Positions 1 to 20,236 of a DNA stretch of 64,000 bases are shown one piece after another. The notes below the pieces were generated by a model. It saw only the letters and a program-made list of their open reading frames with translations. It ran no database searches and was not told the origin of the DNA. Source of the stretch: a virus (taxonomy: Duplodnaviria; Caudoviricetes); the IMG/VR virus record IMGVR_UViG_3300037722_001090, one strand, 5' to 3'. How positions within the stretch are numbered: the first letter of the stretch is position 1; each line of letters starts with the position of its first letter. A program made the position numbers and the translations under genes.

Positions 1-5
1 AACTT

Positions 6-78
6 TGGTACCGCTGCAGGGAGTTGATACCCCGATTTCCTAGTGGTGTACTAATGGTATTGCTTATACGACAGCGAT
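6..78 (-). tRNA. atypical tRNA-like gene (CCA end, non-canonical T loop, anticodon loop TACACCA)
   Basis: Acceptor ATCGCTG/CAGCGGT + A-CCA, D stem GTAT/ATAC; T loop TATCAAC lacks TTC; anticodon stem imperfect. Confidence 0.5.
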
Positions 79-84
79 AAATTT

Positions 85-162
85 TGGTGCCAGGTATCGG
101 AATTTAACCGTTTTTCGAAGACATAGGTAATGATCCTAATCCCCAGTGCTGCATAACCAGAC
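85..162 (-). tRNA. atypical tRNA-like gene (loop ATCATTA, CAT-like)
   Basis: Acceptor GTCTGGT/ACCTGGC + A-CCA, TAGG/CCTA stem around ATCATTA, short T arm CGG-TTAAATT-CCG. Confidence 0.45.
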
Positions 163-178
163 CCAACATGATTTCTTT

Positions 179-264
179 TGGTACCCGACCCCGGACTCGA
201 ACCGGGACGCCTTGCGGCATGGGGCCTAAACCCAACGGCTATACCATAGTTCGCCTAGCCGGGC
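179..264 (-). tRNA. tRNA-Leu(TAG)
   Basis: Full cloverleaf, long variable arm, loop TT-TAG-GC, GTTCGAGTC T arm, CCA encoded. Confidence 0.92.
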
Positions 265-271
265 ACATTGT

Positions 272-787
272 TTAACCATTATATCCTTTAAACCACTCAT
301 CAAGCTCAGGATCTTTATGTCTTTTAACTATAAACTCATAAAGCATAGGCTGATAAGGTTTATAACTTTTCTTGAAATAGCTCATTCCAGCTTCTTCAGG
401 TGTTCTATCTGCTTTTTTCTGATTACAATCATGACAAGCAGATGCTACATTGTCCCAGGTAGTCTTACCTCCCTTAGAGGAAGGAACTACGTGTTCAATT
501 TCAAGTTGTTTTATGGTCAATGATGCGCCACAATAAACACAGCGATAGCCATCTCTTTCAACCATATTTTCTTTGCTGAATCTTAGTCGCTTACCATATA
601 GCCCTTTAGCTAAATCAAACAGCTTTATCTTCTTTGGAACGAAGCTAGTCTCACGTATATTACTCAAGTCACCTTCGTAATCAACAAGAAAGGCTTTGCC
701 GTTTTCAATCATATGCTTAGCGCGTCTGGTTGAAACTTTATTGATGCATGCAAAGTCAGCGTTGAGTACTGAAACTGACCCTTTCAT
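272..787 (-). CDS. HNH endonuclease (McrA-like)
   Basis: RDGYRCVYCG...EHVVPSSKGGKTTWDNVASACHDCNQKK HNH motif. Confidence 0.9.
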   Translation of the reverse strand: MKGSVSVLNADFACINKVSTRRAKHMIENGKAFLVDYEGDLSNIRETSFVPKKIKLFDLAKGLYGKRLRFSKENMVERDGYRCVYCGASLTIKQLEIEHVVPSSKGGKTTWDNVASACHDCNQKKADRTPEEAGMSYFKKSYKPYQPMLYEFIVKRHKDPELDEWFKGYNG

Positions 788-821
788 AATACACACTAGA
801 CCTTTCTTTTTATTTTATTGT

Positions 822-899
822 TGGTGTGACCGAGGAGATTTGAACTCCCGTTCATTGATTCACAGTCAATGCGATTAGCCTAGCTATCTTACAGTCACC
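822..899 (-). tRNA. tRNA-His(GTG)
   Basis: Cloverleaf, loop CT-GTG-AA, extra 5' G, CCA encoded. Confidence 0.9.
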
Positions 900-903
900 A
901 CAT

Positions 904-986
904 TGCAGGTACATGGGGAATCGAACCCAAAAGTGAAGAGTTTTGGAGGCTCTTGCTAACCCAGCTAGCTTTACACTCACGCACCT
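904..986 (-). tRNA. tRNA-Trp(CCA), enlarged D region, no encoded CCA
   Basis: Loop CT-CCA-AA, T arm GGG-TTCGATT-CCC, acceptor AGGTGCG/TGTACCT, ends GCA. Confidence 0.75.
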
Positions 987-989
987 AAA

Positions 990-1400
990 ATCGAGCTAGT
1001 TTTGTACATCGGAAACTAGCAACCTTCTGCTTACTTATCGTGTAAGTGTCCCAGACAATAAACATACAAATAAAGGGCAGGGTTTTTACCTGCATCAATA
1101 GACAATCCTTTCTTAAGGGACTGACCCTCACTAAAGAAGGTTACATATTTATATGCTTATTTTCATATAATGAGTTCTCTCCACTCAATAAGTCAAGCCT
1201 TGAAGCTACATGCAAGTCGCTATGCTTCTTACATATACCTTACCGTCAATACGGAGTATGCCGGCTTTCACCACTTTAATCAATAATCCACTCTTGGCGT
1301 TCCTTCCAAGCGATATCTGTCAATTCAGATCTAAATGGTGCGCATTCATTTTTATGGTACTCTTAGAGGGCTCGTAAGCCAAAACCATGCTATTATTGTT
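990..1400 (-). ncRNA. candidate structured ncRNA
   Basis: About 400 nt with no credible ORF inside the tRNA cluster; serial hairpins (gctagttt/aaactagc, gcagg/cctgc, ccgt/acgg, cttgg/ccaag). Confidence 0.35.
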
Positions 1401-1423
1401 CAGCGTTTAGGAAATATTATTTT

Positions 1424-1469
1424 TGGTTGGGATAACTGGATTTGAACCAGTGACCCCCGAGTTATCAGC
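1424..1469 (-). pseudogene. 3' half of split tRNA-Ile(GAT)
   Basis: GCTGATAA loop, T arm ACTGG-TTCAAAT-CCAGT, TATCCCA-A-CCA; the matching 5' half lies at 2077-2096. Confidence 0.8.
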
Positions 1470-1472
1470 TTT

Positions 1473-1546
1473 TGGTACGCTCACTAAGAATTGAACTTAG
1501 ATGGTCCGGTTATCAGCCGAATCCTCTACCGTTGAGGTATGAGCGT
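1473..1546 (-). tRNA. tRNA-Ile(GAT)
   Basis: Cloverleaf, loop CT-GAT-AA, acceptor ACGCTCA/TGAGCGT, CCA. Confidence 0.88.
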
Positions 1547-1599
1547 ATAGTTTCGAATTTAGTTATTAACACTTATCACATATTGATAAGGAGTTAATA

Positions 1600-2085
1600 A
1601 TGAATTCATGCTTAAATTGTAGTAAAGAAACACTTAATCCAGTATTTTGTTCACGCTCATGTTCTGCTTCCTATGCTAATAAAATAAAGCCAAAACGTAA
1701 GAAAGAGGGTAAATGTGCAATCTGTAATGAAATAATCTCTGCTTCAAGGGCTTATTGTTCAGATATTTGTCGTGGTAAAGCTAGATCTATTGCCCGTAAA
1801 AATTCTAAAGCAAAAACGGGATATGAAAATATAAAAACCCACCGGCAAAAAGTCAAATTAAGAGCCGTACAATATAAAGGAGATAAATGTCAAATATGTA
1901 ATTATGATAAAACACCAGTTAATCTATCATTTCATCATTTAAATCCAGGTAAAAAAGATTTTAACCTTAGTGGTAATTATCACTTAACCTGGGAGACAAT
2001 ACAGGCTGAACTTGATAAATGTATTTTATTATGTATGAATTGTCATGGAGAAGTTCATGTAGGAATTATAAAAATTCCAGACTGA
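1600..2085 (+). CDS. HNH homing endonuclease with N-terminal Cys-rich zinc fingers
   Basis: CxxC...CSxxC repeats, then CQICNYDK...HHLNP...KCILLCMNCHGEVH; antisense to the tRNA cluster. Confidence 0.88.
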   Translation: MNSCLNCSKETLNPVFCSRSCSASYANKIKPKRKKEGKCAICNEIISASRAYCSDICRGKARSIARKNSKAKTGYENIKTHRQKVKLRAVQYKGDKCQICNYDKTPVNLSFHHLNPGKKDFNLSGNYHLTWETIQAELDKCILLCMNCHGEVHVGIIKIPD

Positions 2086-2096
2086 GCTATACCCCA
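2077..2096 (-). pseudogene. 5' half of split tRNA-Ile
   Basis: TGGGGTA-TA-GCTC-AGTCTGG; TGGGGTA pairs with TATCCCA of the 3' half at 1424-1469. Confidence 0.7.
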
Positions 2097-2102
2097 ATAA
2101 AC

Positions 2103-2170
2103 TGTGGAAGAACTGACGAGTCATCGTCAACAGGATATCACTTGCAACCCTACAGGAGGGAAATTCTTCC
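2103..2170 (-). tRNA. degenerate tRNA-like gene
   Basis: Perfect acceptor GGAAGAA/TTCTTCC, T-like arm TGACG/CGTCA, no canonical D/T loop consensus. Confidence 0.4.
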
Positions 2171-2218
2171 ATAACTTTTTTTTAACTGGAGCGGGTAATC
2201 GGGCTACCTGCTTTTTAT

Positions 2219-2293
2219 TAGAGCGGATGGTCGGGATCGAACCGACGACAAACAGTTTGGAAAACTGCAATTCTACCACTGAATTACACCCGC
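2219..2293 (-). tRNA. tRNA-Gly(TCC)
   Basis: Cloverleaf, loop TT-TCC-AA; ends CTA instead of CCA. Confidence 0.92.
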
Positions 2294-2308
2294 ATTGAAC
2301 TTTTTAAC

Positions 2309-2393
2309 TAGTGGGACGGATAGGACTCGAACCTATGAAACCCGAAGGTGGAAGATTTACAGTCTTCTGCAATTGCCACTATGCGACTGTCCC
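2309..2393 (-). tRNA. tRNA-Tyr(GTA)
   Basis: Cloverleaf with long variable arm, loop CT-GTA-AA; ends CTA. Confidence 0.92.
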
Positions 2394-2424
2394 ATGATGC
2401 CACCCATAGGTGGACTTTTATTTA

Positions 2425-2760
2425 TTGATTGGCCCCCTTCTGATCTAAAGAGCATTTAATCAAATCCGCTTGAACCAATCTTCTAGATATAATTGAGGAT
2501 TTTCTTTATAGACGTGAACTCATCCTCTGCAAACATGTCTTTCCGATAAGAGTGTAGGATTATTTTATCTTACGGGAGCTTACTCCGCTACTTCAATACC
2601 GCTAGGCTTCACCTGATTGCTTATGTCAGTCACGCCATCACCGCACATAAGGCGTGCGTCCCAGTTTCCTCTTATCTAGCAACTCAAGCCATAGACGCCT
2701 GATCCGTTCAGGTCAATTAAGAACACGATATCACAATCGGCCCTCTATGGGTTTCGTATT
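2425..2760 (-). ncRNA. candidate structured ncRNA
   Basis: About 330 nt ORF-free; helices GATAAGAG/CTCTTATC, CACGCC/GGCGTG, CCTGA/TCAGG, GGAG/CTCC. Confidence 0.4.
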
Positions 2761-2814
2761 TGGTGCCAGACCAGCTGCAACCATGAATCACAGCTCTCTC
2801 GAGATCCGTCTGGC
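2761..2814 (-). ncRNA. miniature tRNA-like RNA with CCA end
   Basis: Perfect 7-bp GCCAGAC/GTCTGGC + A-CCA, internal AGCTG/CAGCT stem, only 54 nt. Confidence 0.55.
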
Positions 2815-2830
2815 TTTTTGTTAAACTAAT

Positions 2831-2905
2831 TGTGGACCCTATCGGGCTCGAACCGATAACCTCCTAAGTGCAAGTCAGGTGCTCCCCCAGTTGAGCTAAG
2901 GGCCC
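2831..2905 (-). tRNA. tRNA-Ala(TGC)
   Basis: Cloverleaf, loop CT-TGC-AC, G3:T70 pair; CCA not encoded. Confidence 0.92.
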
Positions 2906-2916
2906 ATTGTAAAATT

Positions 2917-2990
2917 TGGTCGAAAGTGATGGACTTTAACCACCGGCCTCCTCCACCCAAGGAGGTGCCCCTTCACCGGGCCGACTTTCG
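2917..2990 (-). tRNA. atypical tRNA-Pro-like gene with 6-nt anticodon loop
   Basis: C1:G72, A73, CCA; stem CCTCC/GGAGG closes TTGGGT; T loop TTAAAGT. Confidence 0.65.
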
Positions 2991-2997
2991 AAATTTT

Positions 2998-3076
2998 TGG
3001 ATGCGGATGCTAGATTTGAACTAGCGATCTTTTGGTTATGAGCCAAATGGGATAGGCCAGACTTCCCCAATCCGCA
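2998..3076 (-). tRNA. tRNA-Met(CAT)
   Basis: Cloverleaf, loop CT-CAT-AA, CCA. Confidence 0.88.
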
Positions 3077-3102
3077 AAACCATGTAGTTTTTTTTATGAA
3101 AC

Positions 3103-3600
3103 TTAAGAAAGCAAGTTCATTGCTTTAACAAACTTTGAAGCTCCAATGATTTCAGCAGCATCATAAAAAGCATTTACTTCTTCCTGCGTTGCAATACGCA
3201 TATTCTCTTCAGTAAAATGAGGAAGATTATTGCCTACAGCACCACCAATATCGACAGCATTCTTGCCTTGATATACAGCAATAAGCTCTCCAATAGCATA
3301 GCTATGACTGTTAGTATTGTCAAGAAGAAGAATCATAGCACCTTTGGGTGCTCCAAGGACAGAAGGCAGCAAAATATCTTTGGATTTAGTAGTGATCTTT
3401 TCACCAATAAGTTCTCCTACAATACCAATAATATCTCTTTTGCCACCAGAGCAAAAGTTACCCGATCCATTGATAAGAGCTAGAAGCTTTTTAGCCTTCT
3501 CACTAGGCTCTTTCTCTTTTTCAGTATAAGCTTTTTCAAGAATAGCAGACAATTGCTTTGTTGCTTCTAGAGACATTGCTCTAAGTTCTTTCAGATCCAT
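3103..3600 (-). CDS. hypothetical protein
   Basis: ORF; start moved to MDLKEL, which has a purine-rich RBS. Confidence 0.7.
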   Translation of the reverse strand: MDLKELRAMSLEATKQLSAILEKAYTEKEKEPSEKAKKLLALINGSGNFCSGGKRDIIGIVGELIGEKITTKSKDILLPSVLGAPKGAMILLLDNTNSHSYAIGELIAVYQGKNAVDIGGAVGNNLPHFTEENMRIATQEEVNAFYDAAEIIGASKFVKAMNLLS

Positions 3601-3637
3601 TTTAAAATTTCCTAAAAAGTTGTTTAAAGATACGGTG

Positions 3638-3988
3638 TTACATTTCAGAAATAAAACAATGACCATCATGTTCAACGGCCACACGAGTAGCAGGACCTAA
3701 AAGGTCACTATATTTACGAAGCCATAAACTGATTGTTGGTTGTGCTACACCAGTACTGAGAACGGCATTATAAAGCTCCTTGAACTTAATGGGAGCAGAA
3801 AATCTCCCACTTCTTCCACGGCCTAAGCGATAGTTAGGTCCAGCAGCAGCTTCAAGCTCTTTCGCAATAATACGGCGGGCTTTATATCCATATTGAGCAC
3901 CATGTGTAGGTACTCCTGGGATTTCTGCTTGTTGACGAAATTTCACTGCACGACAATCATTAAGCGCTTGTAAAAATTCCTTAGTCAT
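3638..3988 (-). CDS. hypothetical protein
   Basis: ORF with GAGG RBS, co-oriented with neighbours. Confidence 0.65.
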   Translation of the reverse strand: MTKEFLQALNDCRAVKFRQQAEIPGVPTHGAQYGYKARRIIAKELEAAAGPNYRLGRGRSGRFSAPIKFKELYNAVLSTGVAQPTISLWLRKYSDLLGPATRVAVEHDGHCFISEM

Positions 3989-4010
3989 ACTAAAAATTCC
4001 TCAAAAATGT

Positions 4011-4085
4011 TGGCGGCATAGACCGGGATTGAACCGGCAACTTCCTATTCGACAGACAGGCACTCTACCATTGAGTTACTACGCC
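4011..4085 (-). tRNA. tRNA-Asp(GTC)
   Basis: Cloverleaf, loop CT-GTC-GA, G73, CCA. Confidence 0.92.
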
Positions 4086-4094
4086 AGTTAATTT

Positions 4095-4177
4095 TGGCTC
4101 TGAGAGTTGGATTTGAACCAACGACCTCGCTTTTTAAAGGCGGCCACCTACGCGCTCTACCACTGAGCTATCTCAGA
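4095..4177 (-). tRNA. atypical tRNA with about 10 extra nt in the anticodon arm (loop CTTTAAA, possible TTA anticodon)
   Basis: Perfect acceptor TCTGAGA/TCTCAGA, canonical D and T arms, G-CCA; anticodon arm distorted. Confidence 0.7.
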
Positions 4178-4191
4178 ACACTATTCAGTTT

Positions 4192-4270
4192 TGGTTACCA
4201 GGACCGGAGTTGCACCGATGACCACCTACCCGTGTAGATAAGTAGCTCTTTTACTGAGTCTTACCCGGCA
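4192..4270 (-). tRNA. atypical tRNA, 8-nt anticodon loop ATCTACAC (TAC- or CTA-like)
   Basis: Acceptor TGCCGGG/CCTGGTA, T loop TGCAACT, CCA. Confidence 0.6.
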
Positions 4271-4284
4271 ACATAATTTTTTAT

Positions 4285-4360
4285 TAGCAGTCGCACCGAG
4301 GATCGAACTCGGCTCTCAATCTTGAAAGGATTGCGTCCTGGCCTACTAGACGATGCAACC
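4285..4360 (-). tRNA. tRNA-Glu(TTC)
   Basis: Cloverleaf, loop CT-TTC-AA; ends CTA. Confidence 0.92.
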
Positions 4361-4375
4361 AAAAACCTTAAGTAA

Positions 4376-4453
4376 TGGAGCCCACTATCGGATTCGAACC
4401 GATGACCTACGGGTTACAAATCCGTTGCTCTGGCCGAACTGAGCTAAGCGGGC
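4376..4453 (-). tRNA. tRNA-Thr(TGT)
   Basis: Cloverleaf, loop TT-TGT-AA, CCA. Confidence 0.93.
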
Positions 4454-4460
4454 AATTAAT

Positions 4461-4534
4461 TGGTGGGCCTTATCAGACGTTACCCTGATCCAACTGCATG
4501 TACTGTGCAGCTGAGCAACTTACACTATCGTCCC
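4461..4534 (-). tRNA. degenerate tRNA-like gene
   Basis: CCA end, GCTGC/GCAGT stem with 9-nt loop, ATCAG/CTGAT T-like stem, weak acceptor. Confidence 0.4.
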
Positions 4535-4560
4535 ATATTAAATTTTTTATTACTACTTAT

Positions 4561-4652
4561 TGGCTCCCCAGAGTGGGCTCGAACCACTATACCGCTCTCG
4601 CGGAATACACTTGATTAACAGTCAAGCCTCTTACCAATTAGAGTACCGAGGA
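4561..4652 (-). tRNA. tRNA-Asn(GTT) with long variable arm
   Basis: Loop CT-GTT-AA, G73, CCA; extra CCGC-GAGA-GCGG hairpin in the variable region. Confidence 0.88.
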
Positions 4653-5189
4653 ATGGTATTTTTTATATCTTTTTCTTACAGCAGCTTCAGAAATATCTAG
4701 TATCTCTGAAATTTGTACATTAGTCATGGTCTTTTTTAGTTCTGTTAAATCTATTTTATCCCAATTGACTTTTCCTGATAGCTTAGCTGCACAATTATGA
4801 GAACAAGTTTTATTATACATTGGTTTTGAAGCACCACAAACAGGACACTCATTAATTTTAACAGTTATCATCTTGTATTCAGCATATTTTTCATTAAAAT
4901 ATTGTTTAACTTCAGGACTAGTTCTTATTCCTGAATGTATTTCGCAATGACAATTATGACATAAAAGAATACATTTTCTTAATTCTATAATAATTTTTTC
5001 CCAAGCCTTAGGATTACCTCTTATTGCTCCAAGAGTAAATTCTTTTTTACTAGGATCAAGATGGTGCAAAGCTAACGCGTCATTACACTTATCATATCCA
5101 CAACAAGAGCATTTACCTCCCATTGATAATACAATTCTTTCTTTTGTTTTTTTACGCCACTCTTTAACACGCTCAGAACCTTCACTCAT
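4638..5189 (-). CDS. HNH homing endonuclease with C-terminal zinc finger and HTH
   Basis: CSCCGYDK...HHLDP...KCILLCHNCHCEIH, then CPVCG...CSHNC and an HTH-like C-terminus; stop codon lies inside tRNA-Asn. Confidence 0.88.
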   Translation of the reverse strand: MSEGSERVKEWRKKTKERIVLSMGGKCSCCGYDKCNDALALHHLDPSKKEFTLGAIRGNPKAWEKIIIELRKCILLCHNCHCEIHSGIRTSPEVKQYFNEKYAEYKMITVKINECPVCGASKPMYNKTCSHNCAAKLSGKVNWDKIDLTELKKTMTNVQISEILDISEAAVRKRYKKYHSSVL

Positions 5190-5279
5190 AGAACCTCCAA
5201 CATAATTATTAACTATACATGTTAATAACTACATTATGGTTCTAAGAGTTTTACATTTTTAAAACGAGCACTGGGAGCT

Positions 5280-5334
5280 TGGTACTCTCTATCACGATCA
5301 AGTCGTGCTTCGCCTACCAGTTTTATCTAGTACT
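5280..5334 (-). ncRNA. miniature tRNA-like RNA candidate
   Basis: CCA end, CACGA/TCGTG hairpin, short terminal GTACT/AGTAC pairing. Confidence 0.3.
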
Positions 5335-5356
5335 TAGACTCATTTTAATAATTTAT

Positions 5357-5429
5357 TACCCAAGAACAAACGAAAACAGTGTTGGTTTCAATTCAAAGGT
5401 GAAGTAACTGTTTTCTAACACTATGGGTA
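5357..5429 (-). ncRNA. short Y-RNA-like hairpin RNA (paralogue of 6131-6284)
   Basis: TACCCA/TGGGTA and GAAAACAG/CTGTTTTC stems; shares TAGTGnTAGA...AGTTACTTC and TCG..TGTTCT with 6131-6284. Confidence 0.6.
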
Positions 5430-5448
5430 TATTTTTAACTTTTTCTTA

Positions 5449-5525
5449 TGGTCGGAATAGCAAGAATCGAACTTGCGACCTCTCCCTCCCAAGGGGAGCG
5501 CTCTACCAGGCTGAGCCATATTCCG
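5449..5525 (-). tRNA. tRNA-Pro(TGG)
   Basis: Cloverleaf, loop CT-TGG-GA, CCA. Confidence 0.93.
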
Positions 5526-6130
5526 AAAATATAATTAGTCTATACATGTTTGTCTTTTTAGGAGACTGGTTATAACCCAGTATAGTAGGTATCTGCCTAT
5601 TGACAGAATTTTGCCACACTAATTTAATACATTATTTAATTGTCAATGAACTTAATCAACACTACGAAATAGATTAGTTGAAAGCTTAATCATATCATTC
5701 GATATATTGATTTCAAATTTTTTAAAAAGAACAACTACAAAAATAGCAAAAATTAAACATAAATACCAAAACATAGCGTATCCTTAAATTAAAAAACCGC
5801 AGGGATTATCTCCGCTGCGGCTAAAATAAGAATATGTATTATATTACTTAAGTAGTTACGCAGCTAGTATTAGTTGCCCAGAGATTGCCTAGATTCTTAT
5901 TATCATGGCTAGCAAAGGCTGGTATAAATGGGCGCTCAATAATTTGATACACGGGTACATTCATCTCAAGAGGTTTAAGTCTTGAATTGCATGAATAGCA
6001 CGCTTGTGTTTGAGCTAAAGAGCAACAACAGATCATTTTACTAATACTTCCTTTTCAAAAATAGCACGACTTGTGTGCTTATGTTTGTTAATAACTGGTT
6101 ATGTTTTTTTACGGAAAACTTTATTTAAGA

Positions 6131-6284
6131 TGCTAGAGAACATGCGATAAGAGAGATGGCCGAAGCCGTTCATACCGGTGCGTTTACCAATTTCGCCACC
6201 CCTCCATAAAAGTGGAGGACGCAGGACTCGAACCTGCAAATATCCGGTCCCAATAGAAGTAACTCTTATCTATCACTACTAGCA
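6131..6284 (-). ncRNA. YrlA-like Y RNA (circularly permuted tRNA mimic)
   Basis: Order is T arm (GCAGG-TTCGAGT-CCTGC), loop-closed acceptor stem (TCCTCCA/TGGAGGG), D arm (TGGCGAAATTGGTAAACGC), carried on ACCGG/CCGGT, GATAAGAG/CTCTTATC and TGCTAG/CTAGCA stems; 1.2 kb downstream of Ro60. Confidence 0.82.
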
Positions 6285-6289
6285 ATCAA

Positions 6290-6652
6290 TTAATTTTTAC
6301 GATCGACTTTGACGAAGATCTCATTAGGTGCTTCAGGAAAGTATTTAAAAAGAGCAGGACAAAGCCATCCTTCAATTCCAATTACATCCTTAACAACACA
6401 GTCCGTAATAGTATACCAGTTGCCGCCCCACTCTTCGCGTGTACGAACGAGAGAGATTTGGCTACCAGGGAAATTACTAGCAGAGAAGGTAAGAGCAACA
6501 CCTTTCTCTGCTTCAGGAATATCACCAGTAAGTGCATCAATCATAAAATTGATTGCACCAACAAAAGGTTCACGAACAAGACCAACTTTGTCATCATCAA
6601 ACGCCCAGATGCCACCGTTCCTGTACGGATAGATAACCATCAGTGCATTCAT
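6290..6652 (-). CDS. DUF6717-like conserved phage protein
   Basis: IYPY...WAFDD...L.REPFV.G...GWLCPALFKYF pattern (recalled family). Confidence 0.7.
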   Translation of the reverse strand: MNALMVIYPYRNGGIWAFDDDKVGLVREPFVGAINFMIDALTGDIPEAEKGVALTFSASNFPGSQISLVRTREEWGGNWYTITDCVVKDVIGIEGWLCPALFKYFPEAPNEIFVKVDRKN

Positions 6653-6656
6653 ATGA

Positions 6657-7394
6657 TTAACGAGTCACAGCACGAATAGGAGTACGCAGCCAATCAGCTT
6701 CGCCACAGAAATCTGCAGCACGAGCCATAAGACCATTGAACTTATTGCCGAGGCCAGGATTAGTAATCTGGAACTCAAGCGTAAACGGCTTGAATCCAGC
6801 AGTAGGAAGGCTCACCTTCTGAACAACCATGCCATCGGGGGTAGTAGCAGAGCTAAGTACCGTAGCTACACCAGCACAACCGCACTGCGCATCAATGGCA
6901 GTAACAAGAGGTCCAAAAAGCCAGTCCTGACGATGATTAAATTCACGAGCAGCATGGTTAAAGGTATTTTTCAGCTTGTCAGCTACAGCTGCAGTACGAA
7001 GAGTGAATACAATGGAGTAGGGCTGAAAACCAGCAGCCACTTCATTAAGTGCAGTTTTAATAACACGAAGGCCATCAGCTGCAGCAATAACAGCACAAGT
7101 ATTGTCTTCGACAGTAGCGGCAGCAGTAGCAGGACCGGTAATACGAGCAGTAGCTTCAGCTGTGAAAAAGCGGAGAGTACGCTCGGCAGCAATAATGCGT
7201 CCAATGTTCTGAACCTTGCTGTAAGAACGGACATTGGTAAGATTAAGACGCTGAGCAACATCTTCAATTACCCAGTAATTGTCAGTTGAGCGCTTTCCAC
7301 CAGTAACGCGAGCGCCGGTTTCATCACGCACAACACATCTGTTACGAAGCTCTTGTTCAAATGCGGCAAGAGTAGGACGAATAACATCAGTCAT
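6657..7394 (-). CDS. hypothetical protein between Ro60 and the Y RNA
   Basis: ORF; start at MTDVIRP with AAGGA RBS. Confidence 0.75.
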   Translation of the reverse strand: MTDVIRPTLAAFEQELRNRCVVRDETGARVTGGKRSTDNYWVIEDVAQRLNLTNVRSYSKVQNIGRIIAAERTLRFFTAEATARITGPATAAATVEDNTCAVIAAADGLRVIKTALNEVAAGFQPYSIVFTLRTAAVADKLKNTFNHAAREFNHRQDWLFGPLVTAIDAQCGCAGVATVLSSATTPDGMVVQKVSLPTAGFKPFTLEFQITNPGLGNKFNGLMARAADFCGEADWLRTPIRAVTR

Positions 7395-7455: not shown

Positions 7456-8883
7456 TTAAGCAGCATGAATAGCAAGAGACTTTTCATACTCACGAACATA
7501 GTCAATAGTTGCTTCAGAGAAGCCGTTGACATGAGTCCATTTGGAATTGTAGCCAACACCATTTTCATAGCTAGCAACATTGATAATATAGCCAAGCCCA
7601 TTAGGCTGTGCAATGCCAGTTTGGCTCTGTTCGTCAGTAAAGACGATGATACGGTCATACTTGCCATTAGTCTTGTTAATATACTCAACAGCACGATGAA
7701 GATCAGTACCGCCAAATCGCTGACTGTTCTTAATAGCCTCACGAAGAGCAAATCCACGACGAGGAGCAATCTGCTTAACGTCAGTAGAAAAGCTATAGAC
7801 ATCAACTTCTTCGCAAACTTCACGAGCAAGCATAGCAATGCCAAAGGCTGCATCCATACGAGTCATTTCGCTTTTGTCAGACATCTTAGCGCACATGGAA
7901 CCAGAGACGTCAACAAGAAGGATAGTCTTACCAGCAATCTTCTCTTGTACATCAAGACATTTCAGCATACCAGTTTCAAGAGCATCTTCATACTGAGGAG
8001 CATAGTTCGCAGCAGTAATGAAGCGATAAGGAAGAACACGTTCAGGGTTCATGCTACGAAGCGCATTCTTGATTAAGGCAGGATCAACGCCAGCTTCAGT
8101 CATTCCGCGCAAGTTACGAAGAAGTGCCAACGCACCAAGAAGATTTTTTTGCTCAGGATCAAGATTAGCATTCAGCATACGAGTGAACGTATCCTTTTTA
8201 TTCTCACCAGCGGACAGATTAGTTTCCCAGGTATCAGGAGTTGCAAGAGTGTCAGCTGCCAACTTTGCCCAGAGTGCAGCCTGAGCAGCATCCTTAGGTT
8301 TAGCGTGGCACAAGAATAGCACGTCGCGGAGCTTAATGGCACTGTTGCGATTGTATTTCGCAAGAGAATACTCATCAAACTTAGTGAACGCACGAGCAAG
8401 ACCCTTTTTCACGGAAGCTGCAATAGGAGTCTTCTTGAATACGCGCTCAGTAGTAAGCCGCATGCTGTCATAGTAGCCGTATCCTTTAGTAGCCTTTGTC
8501 TCAGTTTCCGTCCAATACATAGCAAGAAACTCAGCAAGCTCATCAGGACGCTGAATAACAGCCTCAAGAGCATCAGCGACAATATGACGATGAGTCGGAA
8601 TGCGAGCAGCCTCACGAACTAGCATGAGAGGGGCATGCCGCAGTTTAAAAGCAGTACGAGCCTCAAGCGCAAGAGCAGCAACAGTTTCCGGAGGAACAGT
8701 TGCTACCAAATTTTTGATACGCTCAGACACAGAAATACCATCTTCGTAAAAGTTATCCTCAAACAGAAGACAACCAAGAATAGTACGACGAAGCATCTCT
8801 TCGTTTTTTGCTACAACCACACTTGCGCCTGCATGATTGAGGGATCGGATAGCACGAGGTGCTGGTTTATTTGTTTTCGCCAT
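7456..8883 (-). CDS. rsr: Ro60/Rsr RNA-binding protein (TROVE + vWA)
   Basis: TROVE signature (LRHAPL, IQRPDELAEFLA, FDEYSLAKY, LRDVLFLCHAKP, ALLRNLR, VLPYRFITA) and vWA MIDAS DVSGS...FTDEQ. Confidence 0.95.
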   Translation of the reverse strand: MAKTNKPAPRAIRSLNHAGASVVVAKNEEMLRRTILGCLLFEDNFYEDGISVSERIKNLVATVPPETVAALALEARTAFKLRHAPLMLVREAARIPTHRHIVADALEAVIQRPDELAEFLAMYWTETETKATKGYGYYDSMRLTTERVFKKTPIAASVKKGLARAFTKFDEYSLAKYNRNSAIKLRDVLFLCHAKPKDAAQAALWAKLAADTLATPDTWETNLSAGENKKDTFTRMLNANLDPEQKNLLGALALLRNLRGMTEAGVDPALIKNALRSMNPERVLPYRFITAANYAPQYEDALETGMLKCLDVQEKIAGKTILLVDVSGSMCAKMSDKSEMTRMDAAFGIAMLAREVCEEVDVYSFSTDVKQIAPRRGFALREAIKNSQRFGGTDLHRAVEYINKTNGKYDRIIVFTDEQSQTGIAQPNGLGYIINVASYENGVGYNSKWTHVNGFSEATIDYVREYEKSLAIHAA

Positions 8884-9094: not shown

Positions 9095-10105
9095 CTAAAT
9101 GTTATTTAAGATTTCGCCAAATACTTCACGTTGGATAAGACGGACAAGCCAGTCTTCCCAGCGCTTACGATTTACTTCACTGGGATACTCAGAAATAGCA
9201 GTAAGCTTTTCACAAGTATCAATTAGAGATTCCATTAAGGGAAGAACTTCCGTTAAATAATCCATCTCTCCGTTTTTAATTTTTCGTAGCGTAGAGCCAC
9301 AGCTTAATGGATACTGTATAGTACCAACAGTCATTATGGAGATAAGCTGAAAAGCAGCACGAATAGCATGACTTATCGCTTTCCAATCAATACCTTCATT
9401 AGCTTCTGCCTTCTTAGCTCTAGCGCCATATTCATCATACTTCTTTTTTATGCCATCACGCATATATTCAAGAGTAACAGTTTCCTGAAACTTCTGACCA
9501 CATACTTGATACATACGATATTGGTTCTTATCTCCAGCATCAGGAGACAGTTTATGGATATGTTCACCGGCAGGCAAACAGTCCCAAGTACCATCTAGCT
9601 TAATGCTAATGTTACGATCCACAACAAAATCAAGAACCGCTTTCATTGCAATAAGACGAGAGCCTTTAACTCCATATTTAGCAGCTTGTGAGCGAGCATA
9701 TCCAATAAATGATTTTAATTCGCTTGTATAAAACTCTGATCTAGAAGCAGTCATCTCGTCCCAGATTACAGAAGTAGCAAATATTTTATCTTTAGGAATA
9801 TGCAACATATCAAGAGCAGCAGTATCGCCGTCCATAGCAAGTTTAAGGAAATAATTAAGAGAATAGAATTCAATATCTACATCATCTTTACTGTTCTTCC
9901 CATCTGTTTCTTTTGTCTTAAAATGAATAGATTTTGGATAAAGACCAAGATAAACTTCTCTTTTTGTAGGCATATAAATGCCTTTAAAGTCCCAGTCTGA
10001 ATCTTCAGTATTTGCACCATAAAGACGAGAGCCAAATACTCCAAACATTAAAACATTCAAGTTTCCTATTTCAGGAAACATTTTTAATACTTTTTGATAA
10101 TTCAT
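9095..10105 (-). CDS. RlaP/NrdC.11-like Pol-beta nucleotidyltransferase
   Basis: FGSRLYG.NTEDSDWDFKGIY motif, GYARSQAAKY, DWKAISHAIR. Confidence 0.88.
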   Translation of the reverse strand: MNYQKVLKMFPEIGNLNVLMFGVFGSRLYGANTEDSDWDFKGIYMPTKREVYLGLYPKSIHFKTKETDGKNSKDDVDIEFYSLNYFLKLAMDGDTAALDMLHIPKDKIFATSVIWDEMTASRSEFYTSELKSFIGYARSQAAKYGVKGSRLIAMKAVLDFVVDRNISIKLDGTWDCLPAGEHIHKLSPDAGDKNQYRMYQVCGQKFQETVTLEYMRDGIKKKYDEYGARAKKAEANEGIDWKAISHAIRAAFQLISIMTVGTIQYPLSCGSTLRKIKNGEMDYLTEVLPLMESLIDTCEKLTAISEYPSEVNRKRWEDWLVRLIQREVFGEILNNI

Positions 10106-18826: not shown

Positions 18827-20236
18827 CTAATCTCCGGATGAAGCACCATCTCTACCTTCAGCGCCAATAGCATATCTTTTAGTAAACCCGATTAACTCAT
18901 CAACAGTGTTGTGGTTTGGGTTCATAGTGACATGTTCAAGCAGTGCCTTCAGTATTTCTCCGATAAGTGGTCCACGTTTCTTACCAACAATTGCCATAAC
19001 ATCATGGCCATTAATAGCAAGATCCTTCACTGATAGCGGATCTCCTGCTTCAATAATAGCAAGACATCGTGCTCTAAATTTAAAGAAATCCTCCATATTA
19101 AATGGAGGTCGACTTGAAACTGAATCTGCAAACTGAAGGCAGAACAGATTTTCAAGATTGTCAACACCTACTCGGCGGATGAACTTACGTGCACCACTAT
19201 CAGGCATTGTATGATGTCGGTTCATATGTTCACGAATGATAATACAAACCCGATCCCGAAGATGGCACGGATAATTTAACCGATCCTGCCCAAGAATAGC
19301 AAATGCCATTGTCTCACTCTTCAATTGATGCATATAGTAATGACCAACACCATCATCACCAAAGCTTTGAGTGTGTACCTTACCGATATCATGTAACAGA
19401 CCACCTAAACGCTGTTCTATTACCTTATCAGTCATCTCCATTGCACGGAGAGAATGCTCAAGAAGATCCCATCTGTGATGAGGATTCTTTTGATCATACT
19501 TGTACATAGCAGCAACTTCAGGAAGGATCTCCTTACAGAGCCCTGTCTTAAGAAGCAAGCGCATGCCTTCAGCACAATGATCAGAAAGTAATATTTGATC
19601 GAGTTCCATGCGAATAGCATCACCAGAACAATGCGTAACTAGGCTTGCATGATCACAGAGCGCATCGAAGGTCACTTTATCAATGCTAAATTGCTTTGTA
19701 GTCGCCTGCCTTACTGCTCGCATCATACGTAGCTTATCTTGCTTGAATCGATCTGCTGGGTTACCAATAGCACGAATGACTTTTTTCTCACAGTCATCTA
19801 TGCCACCAACCCAGTCCAGTATTACACCTTCAATGTCCATAAATAGCCCATTGACAGTAAAATCCCTACGAATAACATCGTCATAAGGATTGAGTGAAAA
19901 CGTTACAGCTTCTGGCCTACGACCATCGCCTTCTTCGCTATCTAGCCTGAATGTTGTAACTTCACACTCCTGCGTAACAGCAAGGCGAATAGTAATAGTA
20001 CCATACTTACCACCAGTGTCATATGCGAGATTGCCAAACATATTCATGACTTCTTTTGGAGTTGCACTTGTAGCAACATCCCAGTCATGAGGCTCAAGAT
20101 TAAGCAGAAGGTCACGAATAGCACCTCCTGCCACAAAAGCAAGATGATCTTGTTTGTGAAGATGTTCAAGAATAGCACGTACATGACTTGGTATTAAAGA
20201 TGGGTTTATTTGCATCATATCTGGTTCAGGAATCAT
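18827..20236 (-). CDS. cca: CCA-adding tRNA nucleotidyltransferase with HD domain
   Basis: GGAIRD...DWDVAT, VTTFR, RRDFTVNG, DKLRMMRAVR, LLHDIGK. Confidence 0.93.
   Translation of the reverse strand: MIPEPDMMQINPSLIPSHVRAILEHLHKQDHLAFVAGGAIRDLLLNLEPHDWDVATSATPKEVMNMFGNLAYDTGGKYGTITIRLAVTQECEVTTFRLDSEEGDGRRPEAVTFSLNPYDDVIRRDFTVNGLFMDIEGVILDWVGGIDDCEKKVIRAIGNPADRFKQDKLRMMRAVRQATTKQFSIDKVTFDALCDHASLVTHCSGDAIRMELDQILLSDHCAEGMRLLLKTGLCKEILPEVAAMYKYDQKNPHHRWDLLEHSLRAMEMTDKVIEQRLGGLLHDIGKVHTQSFGDDGVGHYYMHQLKSETMAFAILGQDRLNYPCHLRDRVCIIIREHMNRHHTMPDSGARKFIRRVGVDNLENLFCLQFADSVSSRPPFNMEDFFKFRARCLAIIEAGDPLSVKDLAINGHDVMAIVGKKRGPLIGEILKALLEHVTMNPNHNTVDELIGFTKRYAIGAEGRDGASSGD

What the first reader, a model, noticed from the sequence alone, without database searches (positions are those of the whole stretch)
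1424..2096. tRNA-Ile split by an HNH endonuclease cassette that carries a replacement tRNA-Ile
The 3' half (1424-1469) and 5' half (2077-2096) of one tRNA-Ile(GAT) have complementary acceptor strands (TGGGGTA/TATCCCA). They are separated by about 600 bp holding an intact, divergent tRNA-Ile(GAT) and an antisense HNH gene whose stop codon lies in the 5' half. This looks like a homing element that destroys its target tRNA and supplies a cleavage-resistant substitute.
Basis: partly seen in the sequence, partly recalled or inferred. Interest (0 to 1): 0.7.

Follow-up and report, generated by a model that had tools for sequence, protein, structure and literature searches.

The report
Nuclease-plus-spare-tRNA cassette splitting tRNA-Ile
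In this large uncultured phage a selfish DNA-cutting-enzyme gene that travels with its own isoleucine tRNA gene sits inside, and has broken, the phage's resident isoleucine tRNA gene; lab-grown Felix O1-type phages carry the same enzyme-plus-tRNA unit, so the idea can be tested directly.

Summary
On the minus strand lie, in order:
- a 20-nt 5' piece of a tRNA (2096-2077);
- an antisense HNH gene with its leader (2085-1551);
- an intact tRNA-Ile(GAT) (1546-1473);
- a 46-nt 3' piece of a tRNA-Ile(GAT) (1469-1424).

The two pieces have complementary acceptor strands. About 10 nt of the broken gene (roughly positions 20-30) are missing, so it is dead. It is neither an intron-containing nor a functional split tRNA.

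A collinear relative (L004) has one unbroken tRNA-Ile at this place. Two other phages (L026, L027) have the same nested layout around HNH homologues (65% and 52% identical). Their resident alleles differ from the window's by compensated stem changes.

In cultured Felixounaviruses the homologous HNH (43% identical) plus a divergent tRNA-Ile allele cleanly replaces the resident allele between near-identical flanks.

Best reading: a free-standing homing endonuclease inherited together with a presumably cleavage-resistant tRNA-Ile. It works like a natural cleave-and-rescue element. Cleavage specificity is inferred, not shown.

This scan has noted the same design on other DNA (55 notes, at least 48 genomes, one in this same phage). 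I found no paper describing it. I class it as a new variant of intronless homing.

The parts
2077..2096 (-). 5' remnant of the resident tRNA-Ile gene ('A'): acceptor strand TGGGGTA, TA, D-stem strand GCTC, start of the D loop
   Evidence: Read. The only TAGCTCAGT.TGG in the window, directly after the 7-mer that pairs with the acceptor strand at 1428-1434. Its nearest match among 33 phage tRNA-Ile genes is the syntenic tRNA-Ile of L004.
1600..2085 (+). HNH endonuclease gene (161 aa), antisense to the tRNA array. Two N-terminal Cys4 knuckles and a C-terminal HNH domain. The stop codon and last three codons are read from the tRNA remnant.
   Evidence: PHROG 2255 'HNH endonuclease' E 7e-25. Pfam AI2M-like_HNH 18.4 bits, below the 23-bit cut-off. 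Invariant C97, C100, H112, H113, N147, C145, C148, H149 and H153 in 16 homologues. AF2 pLDDT 91.9. Residues 78-161 align weakly to HNH domains of Cap5, IscB, T4 endonuclease VII and McrA (Z up to 5.0).
1551..1599 (+). Leader of the HNH gene. The hairpin CTTATCA (1572-1578) / TGATAAG (1584-1590) overlaps the Shine-Dalgarno AAGGAG (1588-1593).
   Evidence: 87.8% identical to the L026 leader, against 66.6% in the ORF. Hairpin predicted in both.
1473..1546 (-). Intact replacement tRNA-Ile(GAT) ('B'), CCA encoded, 4-nt variable region
   Evidence: ARAGORN. Rfam tRNA 62.4 bits. Against its L026 counterpart, 21 of 21 pairs are kept and 9 show compensatory double changes.
1470..1472 (-). AAA spacer between tRNA B and the 3' remnant
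   Evidence: Read.
1424..1469 (-). 3' remnant of the resident tRNA-Ile gene ('A'): from nt 30/31 through the anticodon loop (GAT), variable region, T arm, acceptor strand TATCCCA and ACCA
   Evidence: Rfam tRNA positions 30-71, 27.4 bits, E 1.7e-4 when searched as a cut-off stretch.

Best explanation
A free-standing HNH homing endonuclease gene is inherited as one cassette with its own divergent tRNA-Ile(GAT) gene. In this phage the cassette lies inside the resident tRNA-Ile(GAT) gene, at about nt 29-31, on the 5' side of the anticodon loop.

Proposed cycle:
1. In a mixed infection the enzyme cuts the resident-type tRNA-Ile gene of a phage that lacks the cassette.
2. The break is repaired from the cassette-bearing genome, which copies in the nuclease gene and the companion tRNA.
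3. The companion tRNA keeps tRNA-Ile function. Because its stems differ, it is presumably not cut.

Where the flanks are homologous, the resident gene is replaced cleanly (Felix O1 type). In the window, L026 and L027 both ends of the resident gene were left behind as dead remnants. Those remnants then serve, together with the flanks, as homology for further homing into similar alleles.

Shown here: the anatomy, an intact nuclease motif, a functional-looking companion tRNA, an unbroken gene in a collinear relative, recurrence of the layout, and allele replacement in cultured relatives.

Inferred: the cleavage site and specificity, resistance of the companion allele, and the repair route.
For: 1. 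Anatomy and statistics of the remnants.

2. L004 is collinear with the window (RlaP, TROVE, a 116-aa gene, tRNA-Tyr, DUF7022, NUDIX). It has one intact tRNA-Ile after tRNA-Tyr. Its 5' end is the best match to the window's 5' remnant.

3. The same nesting occurs elsewhere.
- L026 (HNH 65% identical): 5' remnant, HNH, tRNA-Ile, 3' remnant.
- L027 (HNH 52% identical): 5' remnant keeping nt 1-29, antisense HNH, a GAT tRNA-like gene, 3' remnant from about nt 32.
- The breakpoints of L027 and the window bracket nt 29-31.

4. The remnants' acceptor stems pair 7 of 7 in all three phages although their sequences differ, with pairs 1 and 4 changed on both sides. Two T-stem pairs are also compensated between the window and L026 (sequences). 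So the resident alleles diverged while functional and were hit separately, or were refreshed by recombination.

5. The companion tRNA keeps 21 of 21 pairs, with 9 compensatory changes against L026's. L026's is also its nearest relative among 33 tRNA-Ile genes. It therefore co-diverges with the HNH.

6. Family habit: homologues sit in phage tRNA arrays. 23 of 80 loci have a tRNA abutting the ORF's 3' end. Examples are Felix O1 (tRNA-Ile), and KVP40-like Vibrio and Hafnia phages (tRNA-Asn).

7. Of 263 Felixounavirus-like records only 11 hold the HNH. HNH-plus phages (Felix O1, garuso) carry a tRNA-Ile allele 49/77 identical to that of HNH-less phages (CL1, D4, pinkbiff). The flanks match 75/77 and 99/100.

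8. The leader hairpin over the ribosome-binding site resembles the control of T4 segB and Aeh1 mobE (PMC2988022).

9. The cassette is identical in contigs from three JGI samples.
Against: - No cleavage data exist for any member of this HNH family, so 'homing' rests on comparative genomics.
- No cassette-free variant of this same phage was found. All near-identical contigs carry it, and the closest empty-site relative is distant (TROVE 67% identical).
- The anticodon arm of the window's companion tRNA (TTCGG/CCGGA) equals that of the broken resident allele in L027. Recoding of that arm alone therefore cannot explain immunity across the family.
- The HNH module (leader plus ORF) is inverted in the window and L027 relative to L026 and to the usual HNH-then-tRNA order. 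I cannot explain this.
- Pfam's HNH match is below its cut-off, and the structural matches are weak (Z 5.0 or less).
Confidence: 0.8

Rival explanations
1. The two pieces are still a working gene. Either it is a tRNA-Ile with a very large intron (group I or protein-spliced), or it is a split tRNA whose halves are joined or paired after transcription, with the inner tRNA cut out by RNase P and RNase Z.
For: The acceptor strands stay complementary in three diverged phages. Phage tRNA genes with group I-like inserts in the anticodon loop do occur in related arrays (L076, L078, L108, L059). The phage encodes RNA-repair-type proteins nearby (RlaP, a CCA-adding enzyme).
Against: About 10 nt needed for the D stem and the anticodon stem are absent. 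The joined halves give no tRNA with ARAGORN, and their predicted fold is not a cloverleaf. There is no group I intron or other ribozyme match in 1-7000 at E up to 10. L026's 3' remnant lacks the anticodon loop altogether. No complementary leader or trailer was seen that could splint the halves.
Confidence: 0.03
2. Local rearrangement rather than insertion. Nuclease-provoked breaks and microhomology repair within one genome shuffled two neighbouring tRNA-Ile paralogues. This would resemble the SegB-driven segmental amplification of tRNA-plus-nuclease units in T6. The remnants would be debris of that process and the cassette not a mobile unit.
For: SegB produces tandem tRNA-plus-truncated-nuclease repeats through microhomology (PMC13096335). 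The HNH module is inverted between phages. tRNA arrays around these HNH genes hold many orphan T arms. Tandem tRNA-Ile(GAT) pairs exist in L006 and L105.
Against: The remnants flank the cassette in the order expected for an insertion into one gene. The resident and companion genes are too diverged to be a recent duplication. The companion groups with L026's companion, not with the resident type. The Felixounavirus comparison shows transfer of HNH plus allele as a unit between otherwise near-identical genomes.
Confidence: 0.1
3. The association is kept mainly for the phage's benefit. The companion tRNA would be a variant that escapes a host tRNA-cutting defence. The nuclease, possibly no longer site-specific, would merely help such tRNA genes spread or amplify.
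For: Phage tRNAs counter tRNA-targeting defences, and SegB aids this (PMC13096335). The companion differs from the resident type in the stems and the variable region, where such nucleases act. One companion (L027) has an unusual shape.
Against: Nothing here links this tRNA to a defence system. The anticodon loop is identical in the resident and companion genes. The presence/absence pattern and the broken target are what a selfish element predicts. This rival is compatible with the main reading rather than exclusive of it.
Confidence: 0.07

Closest known systems
T4/T6 SegB, a free-standing GIY-YIG homing endonuclease in the tRNA gene cluster (PMC2330249; PMC13096335)
   Same: A free-standing nuclease gene inside a phage tRNA array. 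It cuts tRNA gene DNA of related phages (major site in T2L tRNA-Asn), is inherited at nearly 100% in crosses together with the surrounding tRNA genes, and has a hairpin over its ribosome-binding site.
   Different: A different nuclease fold (GIY-YIG, not HNH). SegB lies between genes and recognises the shared T-arm motif. No broken target gene with a same-anticodon replacement nested in it has been described for it.
Intronless homing by other free-standing T-even endonucleases (SegE, SegF, SegG, MobE; review PMC2988022)
   Same: The donor genome is protected by sequence differences in its own copy of the target gene. That copy is co-converted into the recipient along with the nuclease gene.
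   Different: In those cases the resistant allele simply replaces the sensitive one. Here nuclease plus allele sit inside the remains of the sensitive allele, and the unit is only about 610 bp.
Genes split by homing endonuclease genes: mobE in nrdA of Aeromonas phage Aeh1, mobA in T4 gene 39/60, seg in gene 43 of phage 25 (PMC2988022)
   Same: An endonuclease gene has landed inside a functional gene without an intron or intein.
   Different: There both gene pieces still make a working enzyme. Here the pieces are dead and function is supplied by a spare gene carried on the insert.
Group I introns with endonuclease ORFs in tRNA anticodon loops (bacterial and phage; PMC3984707 listed; examples L076, L078, L108, L059)
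   Same: The insertion point is in the anticodon arm of a tRNA gene.
   Different: No ribozyme here and the exons are incomplete. Harm to the host gene is avoided by replacement, not by splicing.
Felix O1 ORF44 HNH (NP_944863.2) with its downstream tRNA-Ile, and the same unit in E. coli phage garuso
   Same: Nearest cultured homologue (43% identical). Same HNH-plus-tRNA-Ile(GAT) unit, present in few and absent in most close relatives, and tied to a divergent tRNA-Ile allele.
   Different: Clean replacement with no remnants. The HNH is on the same strand as, and directly upstream of, its tRNA. The Felix O1 genome paper does not discuss it as such (PMC3185647).
Synthetic 'cleave and rescue' (ClvR) gene drives (from my own knowledge, not checked here)
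   Same: The logic is the same: a nuclease that destroys a needed gene is linked to a recoded copy that the nuclease cannot cut.
   Different: ClvR is engineered, uses Cas9, and spreads by killing non-carriers rather than by copying itself into the break.

Membership tests
HNH (beta-beta-alpha-metal) endonucleases | Catalytic His, Asn and His residues, with zinc-binding Cys pairs framing the motif | tested here: met
   C97/C100, H112-H113, N147, C145/C148-H149 and H153 are invariant in 16 homologues. PHROG 2255 E 7e-25.
HNH (beta-beta-alpha-metal) endonucleases | Match to a curated HNH profile above its threshold | tested here: inconclusive
   Pfam AI2M-like_HNH 18.4 bits against a cut-off of 23. 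A PDB profile search gave only a group II intron maturase HNH at E 0.0078.
HNH (beta-beta-alpha-metal) endonucleases | HNH fold | tested here: inconclusive
   AF2 model pLDDT 91.9. Residues 78-161 align to HNH domains at Z 3-5, rmsd 2.7-4 A, 56-67 residues. No Foldseek match at E 0.001 or better.
Free-standing homing endonuclease (intronless homing) | Gene present in some and absent from other closely related genomes at the same locus | tested here: met
   For the Felix O1 homologue, 11 of 263 related records hold it. For the window, L004 lacks it at the collinear site, but no near-identical empty-site phage was found.
Free-standing homing endonuclease (intronless homing) | Site-specific cleavage of the allele that lacks the gene | not testable with these tools
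   Needs enzyme assays. Breakpoints in the window and L027 only suggest a site near tRNA nt 29-31.
Free-standing homing endonuclease (intronless homing) | The donor's own allele differs at the target and is co-inherited | tested here: met
   HNH-plus and HNH-less Felixounaviruses differ in tRNA-Ile (49/77) between flanks that are 97-99% identical. In the window the companion differs from the resident remnant in all stems. Resistance itself is untested.
Group I intron in a tRNA gene | Ribozyme core, and two exons that join into a complete tRNA | tested here: not met
   No intron family match in 1-7000 at E up to 10. About 10 nt of the tRNA are missing, and ARAGORN finds no gene in the joined pieces.
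Split tRNA genes (Nanoarchaeum type) | The halves together hold every tRNA part and carry complementary extensions for pairing | tested here: not met
   The D-stem 3' strand and the anticodon-stem 5' strand are absent. The cofold shows no splint helix. L026's 3' piece lacks the anticodon loop.
tRNA (the inner gene, 1473-1546) | Cloverleaf with conserved D and T loops, 7-nt anticodon loop and acceptor stem | tested here: met
   Rfam RF00005 62.4 bits against a gathering score of 29. ARAGORN tRNA-Ile(gat). 21 of 21 pairs are kept with 9 compensatory changes against L026.

The most novel reading that the evidence does not exclude
These cassettes are a widespread natural class of 'cleave-and-rescue' mobile elements in phage tRNA arrays. 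A small HNH family cuts a tRNA gene near the anticodon arm and always carries a recoded tRNA of the same anticodon. It has retargeted among isotypes: Ile(GAT) and Asn(GTT) in the closest relatives, others further out. It invades without introns, and is a main driver of tRNA allele turnover and of the many tRNA fragments in phage arrays.
Probability: 0.5. Interest if true: 0.7.

Novelty: new variant of a known kind. Interest (0 to 1): 0.55.

Why it matters
Homing endonuclease genes are thought to survive inside genes only by hiding in self-splicing introns or inteins, or by sitting between genes. This would be a third solution: break the gene and bring a spare.

- It would explain the broken tRNA pieces, duplicate isoacceptors and fast allele turnover seen in phage tRNA arrays.
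- It affects tRNA annotation, since fragments and odd replacement tRNAs are missed or miscalled.
- It gives a natural counterpart to engineered cleave-and-rescue drives.
- E. coli K-12 phages garuso (with the unit) and pinkbiff (without) are in culture, so the claim can be tested at once.

Tried and rejected
- Exact-pattern scans for the two remnants found nothing in viral contigs or metagenome contigs. No closer empty-site relative could be found this way.
- Megablast of window 1-6000 against GenBank phages gave only a tRNA-Tyr match.
Population variants and expression could not be checked.
- No whole genome is held for this window.
- Look-ups by the HNH and by a neighbouring 116-aa protein returned only contigs identical in the cassette.
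- The search for related loci with the 116-aa neighbour found no relatives.
- Idea that the conserved HNH leader is a decayed antisense tRNA remnant: no Rfam match for 1547-1581. Dropped.
- Search for inverted repeats that could explain the inversion of the HNH module: nothing convincing.
- Foldseek against the PDB gave no significant match.
- Gene-free tracts 981-1423 and 2394-2831, considered as candidate Y-like RNAs for the nearby Ro60 homologue, fold no better than shuffles.
- Literature searches for a described equivalent found none: 'split tRNA' with bacteriophage and homing; 'replacement tRNA'; interrupted tRNA gene with HNH.

Full report
**Setting.** The window comes from a large uncultured tailed phage. 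The longest contig carrying the same HNH protein is 205 kb. Terminase, portal and major head protein genes lie at 46-59 kb. There is no close GenBank relative.

Positions 179-5525 hold an array of at least 14 tRNA genes on the minus strand (12 of them reach the Rfam tRNA threshold). Three HNH genes are interspersed at 272-796, 1600-2085 and 4638-5189. A Ro60/TROVE homologue, an RlaP-family protein and a CCA-adding enzyme follow.

**Observation.** Reading the minus strand:
- 2096-2077 is TGGGGTA TA GCTC AGTCTGG: acceptor strand, nt 8-9, D-stem strand and the start of the D loop.
- 2085-1600 is the antisense of a 161-codon HNH ORF. Its TGA stop (2083-2085) lies in the remnant.
- 1599-1551 is the ORF's leader.
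- 1546-1473 is a canonical tRNA-Ile(GAT) with CCA (62.4 bits).
- AAA follows as a spacer.
- 1469-1424 runs from the last base of an anticodon stem through CTGATAA, CTCGG, GGGTC, a T arm and TATCCCA to ACCA.

Searched as a cut-off stretch, the 3' piece matches tRNA model positions 30-71 (27.4 bits, E 1.7e-4). The 5' piece is too short for the model. A pairing 7-mer alone is expected 0.47 times in 2.5 kb. However, the D-arm motif that follows it is unique in both strands of the window.

The pieces lack about positions 20-30, and the joined pieces are not a tRNA. No intron family matches.

**Relatives.** A Ro60-anchored search gave 22 related viral contigs. The closest, L004, is collinear with the window across RlaP, TROVE, a 116-aa gene, tRNA-Tyr, a DUF7022 gene and a NUDIX gene. 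It has a single intact tRNA-Ile(GAT) after tRNA-Tyr. Among 33 phage tRNA-Ile genes, that gene is the best match to the window's 5' remnant.

**Recurrence.** Homologues of the HNH were placed in their contigs.
- L026 (65% identical) has the 5' remnant AGGCGTA TA GTTC AGGGG.., the same leader and HNH in sense orientation, an intact tRNA-Ile(GAT), ATCA, and then a 3' remnant ending TACGCCT ACCA.
- L027 (52% identical) has a 5' remnant that keeps nt 1-29, an antisense HNH, a GAT tRNA-like gene of unusual shape, and a 3' remnant from about nt 32 ending TAGACCA.
- The L027 and window breakpoints bracket nt 29-31. This suggests one insertion point, with later or concomitant loss on one side in the window (nt 20-30) and in L026 (through the anticodon loop).
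- The same design with other isotypes appears in L030 (split tRNA-Asn with an intact tRNA-Asn and a family HNH) and L072 (split tRNA-Pro with an intact tRNA-Pro and a different HNH).

**Are the remnants selected?** In all three Ile cases the acceptor strands pair 7 of 7 although they differ, with pairs 1 and 4 changed on both sides. The T stems of the window and L026 also differ by two compensated pairs.

Dead DNA inherited from one old insertion would not keep this pairing. Either separate resident alleles were invaded independently, or the recipient's own gene ends survive each homing event because repair tracts are short.

The missing parts, and the absent anticodon loop in L026, argue against a working split tRNA.

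**The companion tRNA.** Against L026's companion it keeps 21 of 21 pairs, with 9 compensatory double changes. The two are each other's nearest relatives, as are their HNH proteins. The companion is therefore a functional tRNA that co-diverges with the nuclease.

**The nuclease.**
- The HNH residues and Cys pairs are invariant in 16 homologues.
- PHROGs call it an HNH endonuclease. Pfam is below threshold.
- The AF2 model is confident. Its C-terminal half aligns weakly to HNH domains.
- The 49-nt leader is better conserved than the ORF (87.8% against 66.6%). It folds into a hairpin that covers the Shine-Dalgarno sequence, as described for T4 segB and Aeh1 mobE (PMC2988022).
- The module of leader plus ORF is inverted in the window and L027 relative to L026. 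No flanking inverted repeat explains this.

**Cultured relatives.**
- tblastn found 167 GenBank phage records. Felix O1 ORF44 (43% identical) lies directly upstream of tRNA-Ile. KVP40-like Vibrio and Hafnia phages have the HNH upstream of tRNA-Asn, as does the window's own second copy at 4638-5189.
- Of 80 viral loci, 23 have a tRNA abutting the ORF end.
- Of 263 Felixounavirus-like records with the locus, only 11 hold the HNH.
- HNH-less CL1, D4 and pinkbiff have tRNA-Met followed directly by a tRNA-Ile allele that is 49/77 identical to the allele of Felix O1 and garuso. The flanks match 75/77 and 99/100.

Nuclease and allele thus move as one unit and replace the resident allele. This is the clean version of what the window shows.

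**Comparison with known systems.** The closest known system is SegB of T4/T6, a GIY-YIG enzyme in the tRNA cluster. It cuts tRNA genes and drives inheritance of neighbouring tRNA genes (PMC2330249; PMC13096335). Intronless homing in general, and endonuclease-split genes (PMC2988022), are also close.

What differs here is the compact pairing of nuclease and same-anticodon tRNA, and its nesting in the broken target. I found no paper describing this.

Notes of this scan report the same design on other DNA, including an Arg cassette elsewhere in this phage. I did not test those notes.

**Verdict.** I class it as a new variant of intronless homing. Cleavage specificity and immunity remain to be shown.

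Noticed in passing
window 4638-5189 (-) with tRNA-Asn 4561-4652 (-): A second HNH gene (183 aa) with the domain order swapped (HNH first, treble-clef zinc ribbon last) overlaps the 5' end of tRNA-Asn(GTT). This is the usual 'HNH then tRNA' unit also seen in KVP40-like and Hafnia phages. I saw no flanking Asn remnants.
   Followed up: partly
window 7456-8883 (-), 9095-10105 (-), 18827-20236 (-): A Ro60/TROVE-vWA homologue, an RlaP-family nucleotidyltransferase and a CCA-adding enzyme sit beside the tRNA array. Only a weak YrlA-like match was found (2242-2379, 24 bits, overlapping tRNA-Gly and tRNA-Tyr). Gene-free tracts 981-1423 and 2394-2831 fold no better than shuffled sequence.
   Followed up: partly
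window 905-980 (-), 2917-2990 (-), 4095-4177 (-): tRNA-like genes that standard tools call oddly. One matches only the tRNA-Sec model weakly (28.5 bits). ARAGORN gives the other two 2-nt anticodons; of these, 2917-2990 has no Rfam tRNA match.
   Followed up: no
L027 5000-4924 (-); also before orphan T arms in L047, L058, L062, L066, L102: The replacement gene in L027 has a GAT anticodon loop, a good acceptor stem and a good T arm. It has no normal D arm and a ~21-nt variable region with the recurring motif GTAGAAAGG..AAT.GGT.ACAT. ARAGORN misses it. It may belong to a recurrent non-cloverleaf phage tRNA shape.
   Followed up: partly
L076 869-1191, L078 834-1118, L108 859-1145, L059 174-869: Phage tRNA genes interrupted in the anticodon loop by 190-620-nt inserts with group I intron-like motifs. 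The L059 insert carries a 161-aa ORF.
   Followed up: no
window 1551-1599 and L026 4952-5000: The HNH leader is more conserved than the coding sequence. Both arms of its hairpin carry the tRNA-Ile anticodon-loop word (TGATAAG and its complement). Whether this reflects autoregulation by the enzyme is unknown.
   Followed up: partly
L110 and L112 compared with window 4638-5189: In two near-identical contigs from other samples the 183-aa HNH gene is not called, although the spacing of its neighbours is unchanged. It may be disrupted there.
   Followed up: no
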